Part shown: one piece after another, positions 26,277 to 59,733 of the stretch | Position numbering within the stretch: the stretch's first letter is position 1 | How the letters are laid out: each line of letters starts with the position of its first letter | From: Malacoraja senta | Taxonomy: Eukaryota | Assembly: GCA_038087875.1 (NCBI GenBank) | Contig: CM075992.1 | Coordinates: 7,380,001 to 7,444,000, forward strand | Length of the DNA: 64,000 bases | Direction: 5' to 3' | The notes under the pieces: generated by a model | What the model was told of the DNA's origin: nothing | Database searches by the model: none | Seen by the model: the letters and a program-made list of their open reading frames with translations, nothing else | Made by a program: the position numbers and the translations under genes

Positions 26277-27086
26277 GTACATTATTGAAAATGATCCAAC
26301 GGCTTATAAACGAGACTGTTCCAAGCTTGTGCTTTAATGCTGTGTTTCAGAAGGTTTGAGTTGGAACTTCCATGCATGAAAATGCATGGGGTTTATCTAG
26401 CTTTGAGAATCTCAAGATAGGCGACTCTTGGGGAAGTGGATTCTTCACTCCAATTACTCACTTCTGTAAATTATTTAGCAGCAAATGTACAAAGGCAGCA
26501 AATGAATGATCTAATTAGCTTTTGGTCTATCCATATTTGATTTATTAATTCCTAACTCTCCACATTTCTATCTCCTTTGCTGAATTAAGGTCACTTAACC
26601 AAGCATCATTAGCCAGAGCCTGAGTATTGCACTTTGATCTTGCACCTCTCCTCCCTCTTCCTCGCAAAATGGCTTAGTGGTTCCTCATCTCGTGTGGTTT
26701 CTAATGGGACTTTGAAAGATCATATGAAAAGCTTAAGTCACCACAGGTTTTTTGATGAAATCACATGGGAATGGACTCTGAAGATGGCATGGAATTAGGA
26801 ATGAATTGACTCCACCACTGAGATGAACTGCTGGCACTCTAGCTAAGATGCCCTAAATGGATTCTGTCAGAATTGTGAATGGAGTAATTTGTAGCTCCTT
26901 GCACTGTTGGGTCACAGCTTATCTCGCTGCAATGAATGTGCTAATTTTATCTCCTAAACATTAATTGACCGTACTTTTCCTGTGTCATTGCTGAACTTTC
27001 TTGATATTGATCAGGCAATATTGTCCAGGCGACTTATTACAGTGAAGCATTAACAGTGAACTTGAATGTATCTAACATTAGTCAGT

Positions 27087-27114
27087 CTGAAGAAGGGTCT
27101 CGACCCGAAACGTC
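27087..27114 (+). ncRNA. Minimal type I hammerhead ribozyme motif (Penelope-type)
   Basis: CTGAAGA-A-GGGTC-TC-GACCC-GAAA-CGTC: intact core boxes, paired stem II, palindromic ACGT in place of stem III. Activity not shown. Confidence 0.75.
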
Positions 27115-29654
27115 ACCCATTCCTTCTCTCCAGTAATGCTGCCCGTCCCGCTGAGTTACTCCAGCATTTTGTGTCCACCTAACATTAGTCCTTGTTTGTT
27201 CAACCTCCTTTATTTAATAGACCCTCCCCTGAAGTGGTTTAGGGAGAAAATTCCAATGCTTTTGCAGTCTAGGTAGCAGATGGCATAAGCTTTGGCAATT
27301 AAAAAATACAGTTTCCTCACTGACTTTGCAGCAACTGGTGGTCTGGAGCCTCCTTTAATCAGGACTTAATCAAAATTACGCGAGTGCACTTGAAGTACCC
27401 CCAAGAAGTCCCCCTGAAATGTGGGGCCTAGGACAGGTGAGGCGGCCGATCACGGGACTTCCAATCGGCTGGTCGAATTTGCCCCCTGTAGCCAGGGCTC
27501 TGGAACTCCAGACGGGACGGAGCTGGCGCATCCGCCCTCATAGCCGACTTGCACGGCCTGACTTCCGATCGGCGGGTCGAATTTGCCCTCTGCGGCCGGG
27601 GCTCTGGGACTTCAGCCTGGCCGGAGCCGGCAGATCCGTCTCCATAGCTGACCTCCGAGGCTGACTTTGCGAGCCGGTATCTTGGCCCCCTGGCCGACTG
27701 TGCTGCAGGGAAAACAGACCCAGTCTCTCCTCGGAGCGGAAACATTCCTTCCCAGGCAACATCGAGGTCTGTTACCGCTGTACCCTCTCCTGTATTATCA
27801 CATCACAGAAAGAAGGAAACTATCGGCCAGTTCACTCGACATCCGCTATACTGCTTCCATTATTAAGTAAGTAGTATTGAACATTTAGAAAATCATAATA
27901 CAATTAAGTTGCTGACAGTTTTTGAAAGGGAAATCGTATTTCAAACATTCATTCAGAATCCTTTTAAGATGTAATGAACCGGTCGTGAAGGGAAGCTATT
28001 AGATACGGATGTATTTGGATTTCTTAAAGGCATTCAGTAATTGCCACGTGGAAGGTTACTGCACTGTGGCAGGCACAAATCATTGGTGTGCACTGGTACC
28101 TTGCATAGCACCGGGAATGTGTTCCTAGGAATGAAAGTGCTTGTGGAATCACCTATTCCTTTTCTCCAGAGATGCTGCCGGACCTGCTAAGTTACTCCAA
28201 CTTTTTGTGTCTATCTTCTCTCTCTTTCTCTCATCTCCATTCCCAACATCAATGGGGAGTACATTCTGGGGGAAATTCTAAGAGGCAGGAGCTACCTGCA
28301 TTTGGAAATTCAAGTAAAGTCAATACGGCTTTGTGCGTTGGATTTATTTTTTTGAAGTGGTGACCAAGAGGATTGTTGAGGGTGGTGCAGTAGACTTTGT
28401 CTACATGGCCTTTAGCAAGGTTTAGTTTAGCTTAGAGATACATCGCGGAAACAGGCACTTCAGCCCACCGAGTCCTCGCCGACCTGCGATCCCTTCACAC
28501 CAGCACTATCCTACACACTCAAGGGACAATTTACAATGGTACACAAGCCAATTAACCTACAAACCTGCACGTCTTTGGAGTGTGGGAGGAAACCGGAGCA
28601 CCCGGAGAAATCCCACTCAAATCACGGGGAGAACGTACAAACTCTGTACAGTCACACCACCTGTAGTCAGGATGGAACCCGAGTCTCTGGTGCTGTGATG
28701 CAGTGACTCTATGCTGCCCTTTGACTAGCTCCCACGCTGGTAGGCTAGTTCAGCGAGTAGGATCGCATGAGATCAGCGTGAGGTAATTGGATACAAAGTT
28801 GTTTGATGGTAGGAGGTCACCTTCAAACTACCATCATAAGGTTTCCTGCAGCACCAGATGATCAAATAACCTTGCTCTCTGCTACTCCATTATCAGACAC
28901 ATTGCTCCATCCATCACCTGAAGAATGGACCACCTCGCTGTTCTCTATCTGTGTTCTCCAGCGATGCTGCCTGACCCGCTGAGTTACTCCAGCACTATGT
29001 GTCACTTTGTGCATCAACACAAATTGACTACCTGGCTGTGATATATGTATAGGCAGTGACTGAGAGGACTGTACAAAGTTGGTCACGGGATGCAGTTGAC
29101 TGACTTGACCACTTGGATTTGGTAAACTATATGATGTTAAGGGATCGGCAATGGACCTGAAAGAATAAGTCACAGTTCTTAGTGGTTTCATAAAGAAACG
29201 TGTGGAGGAGTATGTTCCAACCATCTGAAAGTTCTCCAACCTGAAAGCTGGCAGCTAATATCATCAAAGATCCACTGGCTATTCATCTCGCTTCTACCAT
29301 CGGGAAGAAGTTACACAAGCCTGAAAACCATTACCGCCAGGTTTCAGTACAGCTTCCCATCAGGCGCTTGAACTAACCTACATAACCCTAACCACAAACA
29401 TTCATCGACACCAAACTAACTATTGATTTTGCACTAGCTATTGAGGTTGCACAGTATACTTTGGCTTGCACTATCATGGTCTGGTTTACGGAGTAATTAT
29501 TACTTCATGTTCATAAGTCAGAGGAGCATAAGTAGGCCATTCAGCCCTTCGAGTCCACTCCACCATTTAATTTCCATCTCATCCCCATTCCCTTGCGTGT
29601 TGTTTTGTTGCGTTGTATCGAATGTGCTTGTAGCGCTGCAGTAAGAAAGAATTA

Positions 29655-30573
29655 TAGTAAACCCTCGTTATAACGGACCAGATGGGAGAAGGGGAATGGT
29701 GTCCATTATTGCCTATTGTCCGCTATAACCGAGTAAGGTATTATTGTATGTAGTTGAAGTAAAGAAGCGCAGATGATGGTTAATGCACAATGTGCTGGAG
29801 TAACTCATCAGGTCGGGCAGCATCTCTGGAGAACATGGCTATGAGACGTCGGGTCGCTTCTTCAGATTAATTCAGTCTGCATAATTATTCCAGTACTTTG
29901 TGTTGTTTCACCTTTATACCAGGCACCGCTGGTCTGCACCAGCGAGCCCTTCTTCACTGGTTGACGTGGCTGTTGTTGTGGCTCACGCTGGCATTGCTCT
30001 CTTCAGGCCCTTGCCAACGACGAGACGTGCTCGAGCACCGAGGGGCTCCCTCCCCTCTCACCAGCTGCCGCTTCTTTCACTTTGTCCGCTCCCCCTTCAC
30101 TGCTGCCCCCTCCCCAACAGTCACTGACATCTTCCAGAGTGGAGCATGTCAGCAACTCCGGGGGAGAAGGAAGTGGAGGTGGCGGTAGCAGTGGAGGGGA
30201 GAAGGAGAGGCCGAGTTAACAGAGTGACGGAGAAGTGGGGAGGGGGGTCGGGCGGGGGAGAGGGGGAAGGGGACAAGCCGAAGGAAGAAGCGGCAGCTGG
30301 TGAGAGGGAAGGGAGCCCCATGTGGACCGAGACCGTCCTGTCGGTGGCGGCAGCCTGAAGGAAATGCTGTTCCCAGGGGCTACAACATGAGCCACTAGAT
30401 CGTGCGGTGAGTGAAGAAGGGCTCACTGGTGCACCTTCTGAGCTGGGGATGGTGTCGGAAGCTGGGGCTCTATTGGGAGGAGAGGTGGTGCGAACTTTGG
30501 GATTGCGTCGGCGGGACCATCCGCTATAACCAAAATCCGTTCTAAAAGAATCTGTTAAAACGAGGGTTTACCC
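29655..30573. mobile_element. pogo/Tigger-like non-autonomous element
   Basis: TA-flanked imperfect TIR GTAAACCCTCGTTATAACGGA ... TCTGTTAAAACGAGGGTTTAC; repeated TCCGCTATAACC subterminal motifs. Confidence 0.7.
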
Positions 30574-58113: not shown

Positions 58114-58784
58114 GTAAGTAACTGCCTTTCGACATGTTACGTCTTGATTTTGAAACATGCCGTGCAAGGATGGTCAGTAAATGGATGGTGGGAGTCTGAC
58201 CAGTGCATTAGACCAGTGACGCCCCAGACTTGAGCCTCAGTAACAGGTCAACGTTGGAGAAAAAAATCTTTACCTTGTTCCAGACCTGGGTGGCAGTGTG
58301 GACTATGCGAGTTTTCACAGTGAATGTATAATTGTTTTGGGGTACAGGTTGATGAACTCTTTAATGGTGAATTTCTGTTACCCAATGGCCGTAACGCAGG
58401 GTTGTCTGTAACCTCAGTGCTCGCCTGTAACACAAAGTTGTCTGCAGGCCTAGTGCAGCCTGATCAGTGTTTTGTGCAACTGCAACATGGCACCCCACTG
58501 AATGTCTCACCCCAGGGGGCAAGCATGCCGAATGTCCCCTTCACTACCCCATACGGAGAATAGCCAACTTAACAATTGAAGATATGGCAGAGACCTGGAA
58601 CAGGCCACTATGTCAGACTAAAAGTCAAAAAGGATGTTAATTGTTAGATGTACATAGTCACCCTATCCATAGATAGGCACCAAAAGCTGGAGTAACTCAG
58701 AGGGTCAGGCAGCATCTCTGGAGAGAAAGAATGGGTGACGTTTTGGGTCGAGACCCTTCTTCGGACACCCTATCCATGTTCGGT

Positions 58785-58812
58785 CTGAAGAAGGGTTCGG
58801 GCCCGAAACGTT
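58785..58812 (+). ncRNA. Minimal hammerhead ribozyme motif, variant stem II
   Basis: CTGAAGAA-GGGT-TCGG-GCCC-GAAACGTT; stem II sequence differs but still pairs; upstream GGT can pair with downstream GCC as stem I. Confidence 0.7.
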
Positions 58813-59733
58813 GCCTATTTCCTTCGCTCCATAGATGCTGCCGCACCCGCTGAGTTTCTCCAGCACTTTTGTCTACCTTTGATTTTCCAGCATCTGCAGT
58901 TCCTTCTTGAACACCCTATCCATGTTCTCCAGGGATTCTACCTGAGCTACTGAGCTACTCTTGCACTTTTTTCCTACAAATGCAACTTTTTCCAATGGAA
59001 CAAATCAATTGGAGAGGCACTGTGACACAGCTCTTAGAGGTGACACCCCATTACTCCAGCACTCTGACTTCCGTCCTTGCTTCCAGTGCTGTCTCTGTGG
59101 AGTTGTACGTTCTCTCTGTGATCATGTTGGTTTTCCCCGCTGATCCAGTTTTCTCCCACAAGCAAAAAAAGCTGTGGTTAATTTGCCGCCATAACGTCCT
59201 CTGAGTCCAGGGAAAATAAAATGAGATTAGTGTAGGGTTGGTGTAAATGGTGCCTGGTGTAATGCTCAAACTTGGTAGGCCAAAGGGCCAGTCTATGTGG
59301 GGTGTGACTCAATGGCAGCGGATCGAAGACCACAAATTAAAACTGCAGTCGCTCATATCCTAAATCATTAAATAGATCCCGATCCTGACTACCGGTGCTG
59401 TCCGTCCGGAGTTTGTACGTTCTCACTGTGACCACGTGGGTTTTCTCCGGGTGCTCGGTTTTCCTCCCACACTACAAAGATGTGTAGGTTCATTGGCTTT
59501 GATTAAATTGTCCCTAATGTGTAGGATGGTGCTATTGTCCAGGGTGATCGCTGGACCCGGTCGGCCAGACAGCCTGTTTCCACGCTTCATCTCTAAAGTA
59601 AAGTACTGGAGATAATAGTGAGTGTTCAGTGTCCTGACCCAGAGTTGCAGCAGGCTTTTGCGCGGAGGTCTTTCAGCGGTCCATCTTTCACGGCGCATTC
59701 AAATGTGATGGTGTTGATTTTTACTTGTTCCAG

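What the first reader, a model, noticed from the sequence alone, without database searches (positions are those of the whole stretch)
27084..58927. Most abundant short repeat is a Penelope 3' end carrying a minimal hammerhead ribozyme
Seen: dozens of copies contain CTGAAGA-A-GGGTC-TC-GACCC-GAAA-CGTC/CGTT. Plus-strand cores are intact at 27087, 42565, 43612, 48614, 57857 and 58785. Stem II varies but keeps pairing (GGGT-CTCA-ACCC, GGGT-TCGG-GCCC, GGGTC-CA-GACCC). At 43440-43740 the unit directly follows a GIY-YIG C-terminus (IFCLGSLHPSGMN). Established: CUGANGA/GAAA is the hammerhead core; Penelope-like elements carry minimal type I hammerheads with a palindromic remnant of stem III, thought to cleave as dimers; an extra residue between A9 and G10.1 is a tolerated variant. 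Inference: this MITE-looking repeat is a high-copy ribozyme-bearing retroelement end. Many copies are disabled by CpG decay (CCCGAAA to CCCAAAA). Caveat: stem I is only 2-3 bp as read locally.
Basis: partly seen in the sequence, partly recalled or inferred. Interest (0 to 1): 0.8.

Follow-up and report, generated by a model that had tools for sequence, protein, structure and literature searches.

The report
Hammerhead-headed Penelope retroelement fragments
This abundant short repeat is the end piece of a Penelope-like jumping gene and carries a minimal hammerhead-ribozyme sequence, a pairing already described in other animals; most copies here are decayed and likely inert, and most start just before the ribozyme rather than at its cut site, so they were likely copied from uncut RNA.

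Summary
Real, but a known kind. The window holds 52 arms of a 95-130 nt repeat at 34 sites (6.7%). Its head is a minimal type I hammerhead: full core, extra A after A9, 4-bp stem II, ACGU remnant of stem III. Only 5 arms keep the whole motif. One copy lies 110 nt after a Penelope-like (PLE) ORF end; related runs bridge the two, and 26 of 27 metagenome loci with a PLE ORF end carry the same core 75-160 nt downstream. Target-site duplications of 10-16 bp, a tail on one arm only and head-to-head inversions are PLE marks, not MITE marks. Against activity: stem I is 2 bp, stem II shows no covariation here, the core is no better kept than the flanks, and the predicted fold hides the core. This scan noted the same system, and this clustering, in other genomes. 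A separate CPEB3-type ribozyme match lies at 30966-31042.

The parts
43440..43502 (+). Last 20 codons and stop of a PLE ORF (end of the GIY-YIG domain)
   Evidence: Top hit of a PLE C-terminal profile, E 3e-5; loose ends of 719 and 740 contigs in two runs continue the frame upstream
43503..43611 (+). Pyrimidine-rich upstream part of the pseudo-LTR
   Evidence: Bridged to both ORF end and core by contigs in all 4 runs laid (table 8)
43612..43639 (+). Complete minimal hammerhead motif, C3 to C17; predicted cut after 43639
43640..43740 (+). 3-prime part of the repeat, with the roughly 30-nt tail at its end
27084..27178 (+). Stand-alone short copy, complete motif, starts 3 nt before C3, 12-bp target-site duplication (27072-27083 and 27179-27190)
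42452..42656 (.). Head-to-head inverted pair, 16-bp target-site duplication, tail on the minus arm only, complete motif on the plus arm (42565); inserted at the edge of an older PLE ORF fragment
57752..57976 (.). Inverted pair with about 25 nt of upstream pseudo-LTR on both arms; complete motif at 57857
58666..58910 (.). Two arms of different subfamilies; complete motif at 58785 (U-G in stem II, cut site after GUU)
48613..48735 (+). Copy inserted into a SINE; core bases kept but C11.1 changed to T
3435..3651 (.). Inverted pair, 15-bp duplication, tail on the plus arm only
23522..23732 (.). Inverted pair, 15-bp duplication, tail on the minus arm only
35407..35582 (.). Inverted pair lacking the core, 15-bp duplication, one tail
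36531..36737 (.). Inverted pair, 12-bp duplication, one tail
47555..47766 (.). Inverted pair, 14-bp duplication, one tail
44367..44459 (-). Stand-alone decayed copy, 10-bp duplication, starts 4 nt before C3
45453..45767 (-). Older PLE reverse transcriptase fragment, ending where a repeat copy begins (45455-45359)
41916..42035 (-). Older PLE GIY-YIG fragment
32444..32748 (-). Older PLE linker and GIY-YIG fragment, no repeat attached

Best explanation
The repeat is the hammerhead-bearing end module of a Penelope-like retroelement, and its short copies were likely made by target-primed reverse transcription of uncut element RNA that likely begins just upstream of the ribozyme. Shown: the module lies 110 nt after the ORF stop; copies have 10-16 bp target-site duplications, two kinds of 3-prime end (short, or with a roughly 30-nt tail), head-to-head inversions with one tail, and a 5-prime edge at the ribozyme's upstream border. 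Inferred, from the Anolis element PAc: the GIY-YIG domain cuts both strands, and the reverse transcriptase starts at one of two internal sites about 95 and 125 nt into the module and copies to the RNA's 5-prime end. Priming on one strand gives a single copy; priming on both gives an inverted pair, joined by 2-4 nt of microhomology inside the ribozyme. Inferred: the ribozyme is off by default (2-bp stem I, no stem III without a partner, a competing hairpin) and cuts, if at all, as a dimer or with the element's protein. Today's copies decay neutrally, and an inverted pair would fold arm on arm, so they are likely inert.
For: ORF-end link: (contigs bridge ORF end and core in all 4 runs). Same core 75-160 nt after a PLE ORF end in 26 of 27 metagenome loci with such an end. 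In those other families, features outside the search pattern behave as in a hammerhead: N17 is G in 1 of 76 contexts, and stem I averages 2.5 bp over 44 types against 1.5 shuffled, 0 of 5000 shuffles as high. Duplications abutting the ends at 9 of 34 sites with score 10 or more, against 5 of 300 random pairs. One tail in 8 of 9 simple inverted pairs, two tails in none (one false regex call corrected by eye). Arms of a pair are within each other's 3 nearest copies in 5 of 9 pairs. 25 of 29 core-bearing arms carry no long upstream pseudo-LTR match; 30 of 52 arms align from the core's start and 2 of 52 start at the cut site. An Initiator-like heptamer centres on position -3 in 5 of 6 copies checked. 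PAc cuts and extends both strands, starts internally at two sites, uses uncut RNA and needs protein for ribozyme cleavage.
Against: No cleavage, transcript start or full-length element was seen. No stem II covariation in the window. Core not better kept than flanks. Rfam hammerhead models give no match at E up to 1. The Initiator-like heptamer is common (1.1% of positions), the 6 copies were chosen, and the same letters read as a splice acceptor. 12 of the 25 short-start arms begin at an inversion junction, so only 13 are independent starts, and only 3 have the edge fixed by a duplication or a known host sequence. Subfamilies with another upstream sequence could mimic a fixed start. 3 of 9 pairs have arms that are not close (ranks 7-36). 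One window only: no genome is held.
Confidence: 0.65

Rival explanations
1. Ordinary 5-prime-truncated 3-prime ends: reverse transcription starts at the downstream repeat and falls off, and the ribozyme is an active dimer cutter that processes the element's RNA.
For: 4 of 29 arms run further upstream, one to the ORF. High 5-prime truncation is the textbook PLE pattern. Head-to-tail joints of the unit stand in 12, 4, 57 and 68 contigs of the four runs, which would allow dimers. A 2-bp helix I is published for D. virilis.
Against: Random fall-off does not give a sharp edge at the far side of the ribozyme; a structural stall would sit at its 3-prime side. Only 2 of 52 arms start at the cut site. 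The predicted fold buries the core, with stem I pair probability of at most 0.01.
Confidence: 0.2
2. The fixed start reflects a splice acceptor directly before the ribozyme, as in D. virilis Penelope, where the intron's end maps to helix I; splicing would supply another stem I strand.
For: The family base at 43609 is A in about 97% of depth, giving a pyrimidine tract and CAG before the core; the stop codon region reads like a donor in the family. Precedent.
Against: No joint from about 43498 to 43611 among the 15 joints shown (290 not shown, contigs only, RNA status a guess). Stand-alone copies share no common first exon upstream, and several keep the AG. That donor would not lengthen stem I.
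Confidence: 0.1
3. The family has lost catalysis altogether, or the palindromes are MITEs and the motif is incidental.
For: No covariation or excess conservation in the window; inverted structure; folds no better than shuffles (z -0.2 to +1.6).
Against: MITE: lengths vary, duplications are 10-16 bp, arms are unequal and the unit joins a PLE ORF. Incidental motif: the same core with covarying stem I sits at the same place in other PLE families, and the B subfamily's changes at 17 and 1.1 keep an allowed cut triplet and the pair. Loss of catalysis in this lineage is not excluded.
Confidence: 0.05

Closest known systems
Minimal hammerheads (min-HHR) in pseudo-LTRs of metazoan PLEs (Cervera and De la Pena 2014, PMC4209133)
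   Same: Full core, unpaired base between 9 and 10.1, G10.1-C11.1, palindromic 15.2-16.2 without a loop, place in the pseudo-LTR, mostly solitary copies in large numbers (about 4,000 in coelacanth, 9,000 in Xenopus).
   Different: Stem I is 2 bp (4-5 bp in the Schistosoma families, 2 bp in D. virilis) and stem II 4 bp. No shark or skate is named in the text parts read or the two supplement files searched (figure alignments and file 1 not seen).
PAc, Poseidon element of Anolis carolinensis (Frangieh et al. 2024, PMC11167929)
   Same: Ribozyme at the head of the terminal module, two 3-prime ends separated by a tail, AT-rich targets (68% against 55%), uncut RNA as template.
   Different: In PAc the ORF starts in stem II; no conserved reading frame runs through this unit as read by eye. 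PAc is of the Poseidon clade; the homologues here carry the Neptune-type linker. The parts read do not describe a fixed genomic 5-prime edge.
Inverted pseudo-LTR and tail structures of endonuclease-positive PLEs (Arkhipova et al. 2013, PMC3846280; Craig et al. 2021, PMC8557442)
   Same: Head-to-head inverted copies, optional 30-40 bp tail on one end, 8-10 bp duplications, solo pseudo-LTRs, an Initiator-like motif in the pseudo-LTR.
   Different: Those authors favour self-priming on an antisense template. Here the tailed arm is the shortened one in 3 of 3 uneven junctions, which fits two primings better than a simple fold-back.
Non-LTR retrozymes (bioRxiv 10.64898/2026.07.22.740005)
   Same: Short hammerhead-bearing sequences derived from PLE pseudo-LTRs, reported in one cartilaginous fish.
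   Different: Retrozymes are tandem arrays (mean 363 bp in that fish); the copies here are dispersed, single or inverted, 95-130 nt.

Membership tests
Minimal type I hammerhead of PLEs | Core CUGANGA, GAAA and UH with H not G | tested here: met
   Consensus of 26 arms; 8 arms keep all 11 bases; N17 is C or U in 26 of 26
Minimal type I hammerhead of PLEs | Extra base between A9 and G10.1; G10.1-C11.1 pair; palindromic 15.2-16.2 | tested here: met
   Extra A in 25 of 26; C11.1 in 22 of 26; CG in the consensus
Minimal type I hammerhead of PLEs | A helix I able to close the core | tested here: inconclusive
   2 bp, 78.6% of cells paired; pair probability of at most 0.01; 2 bp is published for D. 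virilis
Minimal type I hammerhead of PLEs | Compensatory changes within the family | tested here: not met
   No two-sided change in stem II among 21 arms; 346 of 500 shuffles as high. Met only across other families with the same core
Minimal type I hammerhead of PLEs | Position in the pseudo-LTR next to the ORF | tested here: met
   110 nt after the stop; bridged in 4 of 4 runs
Minimal type I hammerhead of PLEs | Self-cleavage as a dimer or with protein | not testable with these tools
   Only contigs were on offer; they cannot show RNA ends
Rfam hammerhead families | Match to a covariance model | tested here: not met
   No hammerhead family among 27 matches at E up to 1
Endonuclease-positive PLE | ORF with reverse transcriptase and C-terminal GIY-YIG linked to the repeat | tested here: met
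   Linked C-terminus. RT and GIY-YIG fragments elsewhere in the window are separate, older copies; no full ORF seen
Endonuclease-positive PLE | Tail on one end, inverted truncated copy, target-site duplication | tested here: met
Endonuclease-positive PLE | Intron in the pseudo-LTR (some families) | tested here: inconclusive
   Donor-like and acceptor-like sites present, no joint among those shown
Neptune clade | Cysteine linker between RT and endonuclease | tested here: inconclusive
   57 of 59 homologues with the matching C-terminus have it; the linked window copy does not reach that far, the unlinked one is decayed; no tree was built
MITE | Equal terminal inverted repeats, uniform length, short fixed duplication (features recalled) | tested here: not met
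   Unequal arms, inserts of 84-217 bp, duplications of 10-16 bp of varied sequence
Non-LTR retrozyme | Head-to-tail tandem array with a hammerhead in each unit | tested here: not met
   No such array among the 34 sites; some head-to-tail joints exist in related runs

The most novel reading that the evidence does not exclude
The 95-130 nt unit is a self-propagating non-autonomous element: it is transcribed from its own Initiator 3 nt before the hammerhead core, holds the ribozyme off with a hairpin between the core and the bases after the cut site, and is copied whole by the Penelope protein. The inverted pairs are fossils of priming on both target strands, one at each of the two internal start sites, possibly on two RNAs held together by the ACGU palindrome. 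The hammerhead would then serve as RNA head and pairing device rather than as a cutter.
Probability: 0.25. Interest if true: 0.55.

Novelty: new member of a known kind. Interest (0 to 1): 0.27.

Why it matters
As a ribozyme find it adds a likely elasmobranch family to a class described in 2014. Its use lies elsewhere: what PLE hammerheads do is still open, and a family this dense (34 sites in 64 kb) gives many natural insertion products. Their fixed start before the ribozyme, the scarcity of starts at the cut site and the one-tail inverted pairs are genomic tests of the in vitro PAc model. If cleavage were real, the five complete sense-strand copies would matter for the host pre-mRNA; the folds argue against that.

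Tried and rejected
Whole-genome analysis: no genome held. Rfam: no hammerhead hit; the miRNA hits are the inverted pairs. Exact 31-nt motif in metagenome contigs: 0; relaxed motif in viral contigs: 0. Word-index search with the decayed GIY-YIG fragment: nothing; the full scan gave 3 hits, of which 2 were repetitive and dropped. Pfam found none of the three PLE fragments. RNA runs: no RNA holder listed; the four runs laid were contigs, so no ends or levels. The roughly tenfold depth step at 43608 and the loose ends at 43610 are not used as evidence, because contig depth cannot rank parts and the window copy's own base at 43609 stops alignments there. Splice-activated stem I: no joint among those shown. 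Stem II covariation and excess core conservation: absent. The competing hairpin is paired in 91.9% of cells and 4 of its 5 commonly varying 3-prime positions keep pairing, but it does not beat shuffles (146 of 500): a lead only. Simple fold-back origin of the inverted pairs: disfavoured, since the shortened arm carries a tail that the full arm lacks (3 of 3). Rows dropped: arms at 12717-12859 (duplicate of the 15256 region); 35531 (core misassigned); 538 (no core found); pairs at 2071-2536, 38500, 57752 and 58666 (complex or spaced) from the 9 simple pairs; contexts with under 8-9 flanking bases (76 kept; one search listed 104 under a looser rule). Lunse et al. on dimer cleavage of PLE hammerheads is not held; only its title was seen.
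Full report
What is there. The window is intron-like animal DNA, dense in SINEs and LINE ends. The nearest named relatives of a PLE protein found with the window's RT fragment are from sharks and rays, so the host is likely an elasmobranch; no genome is held. A profile built from window copies finds 52 arms (28 plus, 24 minus) at 34 sites, 4269 bases or 6.7%. 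The head of the unit reads as C3-U4-G5-A6-A7-G8-A9, an extra A, a 4-bp stem II with a four-base loop, G12-A13-A14, then ACGU and C or U at position 17. A strict pattern matches 5 times against 0 in each of 100 shuffles. Eight of 52 arms keep all 11 core bases; five (27087, 42565, 43612, 57857, 58785) keep the whole motif. All five lie on the plus strand, the strand of two exon-like frames with weak cyclic-nucleotide-binding matches.

It is a Penelope-like element. The 20 codons at 43440-43499 are the best of 3237 six-frame segments against a profile of 59 PLE C-termini (E 3e-5, next best 0.035). Six residues follow the G-M-N motif before the stop, the commonest spacing among those proteins (28 of 59). 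In four public runs laid on 43400-43780, contigs bridge the ORF end and the core in every run, and in two runs 719 and 740 contigs run on upstream in letters that continue the reading frame. The link is therefore a family trait, not a chance neighbour. The same core, searched in metagenome contigs, lies 75-160 nt after a PLE ORF end on the same strand in 26 of the 27 loci that hold such an end, of 121 loci held; here the distance is 110 nt.

It is a hammerhead-type motif, but its activity is open. The pattern used fixed the core, not position 17 or stem I. In those other families position 17 is G in 1 of 76 contexts, and stem I averages 2.5 bp over 44 types against 1.5 in shuffles (0 of 5000 as high) and 0.2-1.0 when slid; related types are not independent, so this is support, not a probability. 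Copies that decay after insertion are expected to look like this, so it does not refute an active master. More telling, stem I is 2 bp (3 at 58785, where the third pair may come from a junction), its first pair has probability of at most 0.01, and the preferred fold pairs the core with the bases after the cut site. Three of seven metagenome motifs folded for comparison do form stem I (0.46-0.86); four do not. An inverted pair folds arm on arm (-44.9 kcal/mol at 42565), which would silence it. Rfam's hammerhead models do not match.

How the copies were made. Nine of 34 sites have a 10-16 bp direct repeat abutting both ends with score 10 or more, against 5 of 300 random pairs; a tenth is weaker. 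These targets are 68% AT against 55%. Arms end either short or with a tail of about 30 nt. Of nine simple head-to-head pairs, eight have a tail on one arm, one has none, none has two. In five of the nine each arm is among the other's three nearest copies, in a sixth within four, and in three not close. In the three pairs with uneven junctions (3431, 36560, 42474) the tailed arm is the one cut short inside stem II, so it cannot have been copied from the other arm. Tails, inversions and such duplications are described for PLEs. The Anolis element PAc cuts and extends both strands and starts reverse transcription at two internal sites that bound the tail; priming on both strands would give exactly one-tail inverted pairs. 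That step is inferred.

The fixed start. Only 4 of 29 core-bearing arms carry upstream pseudo-LTR sequence of 15 nt or more; the other 25 match at most about 8 nt or score within background. Twelve of the 25 start at an inversion junction, 13 stand alone. Where the edge is fixed, it lies at -3 (27084), -4 (44459, with a G outside the duplication) and -1 (48613, inside a SINE). Of all 52 arms, 30 align from the core's start and 2 begin within a few bases of the cut site. So the template kept the ribozyme's head, which fits the PAc result that uncut RNA is the main substrate and that no RNA reads end at the cut site. A stall at the ribozyme would leave edges on its 3-prime side, not beyond it. 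The simplest reading is that the RNA starts there; an Initiator-like heptamer centres on -3, and D. virilis Penelope has an internal promoter. The same letters form a splice acceptor, and D. virilis has an intron ending at helix I, but no such joint is among the 15 shown of 305. I wrote this reading down before seeing that the scan had noted the same clustering in another genome; that note is not independent proof.

Comparison and verdict. Every sequence feature that Cervera and De la Pena list for PLE minimal hammerheads is met except covariation within the family, and thousands of solitary copies per vertebrate genome are already reported. Six literature searches showed no paper on this elasmobranch family or on 5-prime edges clustering at the ribozyme; the library lacks most subscription journals and repeat databases. 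Seen of each paper: PMC4209133, parts 1-2 of 4 and a term search in two supplement files (file 1 and figures not seen; its alignments could include a cartilaginous fish); PMC11167929, parts 1-2 of 4 and passages (supplement not seen); PMC8557442, PMC3846280, PMC2377424, PMC6765202, PMC6155905 and bioRxiv 10.64898/2026.07.22.740005, passages only (the preprint's tables were not seen and may list this family); Lunse et al., title only. Recalled and from no call: hammerhead numbering, the Initiator consensus, MITE features, and the names HE1 and PNPLA6/7. Verdict: a new member of a known kind, interest 0.27; the fixed start and the one-tail pairs are the part worth a genome-wide test.

Noticed in passing
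window 30966-31042, minus strand: Match to Rfam CPEB3_ribozyme at 37.5 bits, above the gathering score of 35. The P2, P3 and L3 sequences are nearly those of the mammalian ribozyme, and P1 can pair with changed letters on both sides as read by eye. Single copy in the window, antisense to the host gene, about 400 nt from a GC-rich stretch. No paper found with CPEB3, HDV-like ribozyme and shark. Could be a retroelement head or a kept HDV-like ribozyme; possibly more interesting than the finding itself.
   Followed up: partly
window 34142-35173, plus strand: Uninterrupted 343-aa Tc1/Sleeping Beauty-type transposase frame (Pfam HTH_Tnp_Tc3_2, HTH_SB, DDE_3), so likely a young insertion.
   Followed up: partly
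window 52471-52869 and 59638-59973, plus strand: Exon-like frames with weak cNMP-binding matches; the peptides recall PNPLA6/PNPLA7 (recalled, untested).
   Followed up: partly
window-wide, e.g. 42962-43275: tRNA-like SINE family with AAACT-type tails, 41 hits at 33 sites, 14.1% of the window; recalls the elasmobranch HE1 SINE (recalled).
   Followed up: partly
window 12700-12860 and 15240-15400; also about 12100 and 13950: Near-identical repeat arms with shared flanks, a local duplication of a few hundred bases or more.
   Followed up: no
window 42436-42672 and 45359-45767: Short copies sit at or inside older PLE ORF fragments, and one inside a SINE (48613); possible nesting preference.
   Followed up: no
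runs X1, X5, X18, X19 laid on 43400-43780: Head-to-tail joints from about 43697 back to 43610 in 12, 4, 57 and 68 contigs: tandem units exist in related genomes and would be the natural dimer substrates.
   Followed up: no
L051, L063, L074, L076, L028, L060: Other animals' PLE families with the same core also form inverted pairs, with or without an ORF end between them; many of their copies share longer upstream sequence than the window's family.
   Followed up: partly
window 21788-21987: Assembly gap of 200 N.
   Followed up: no
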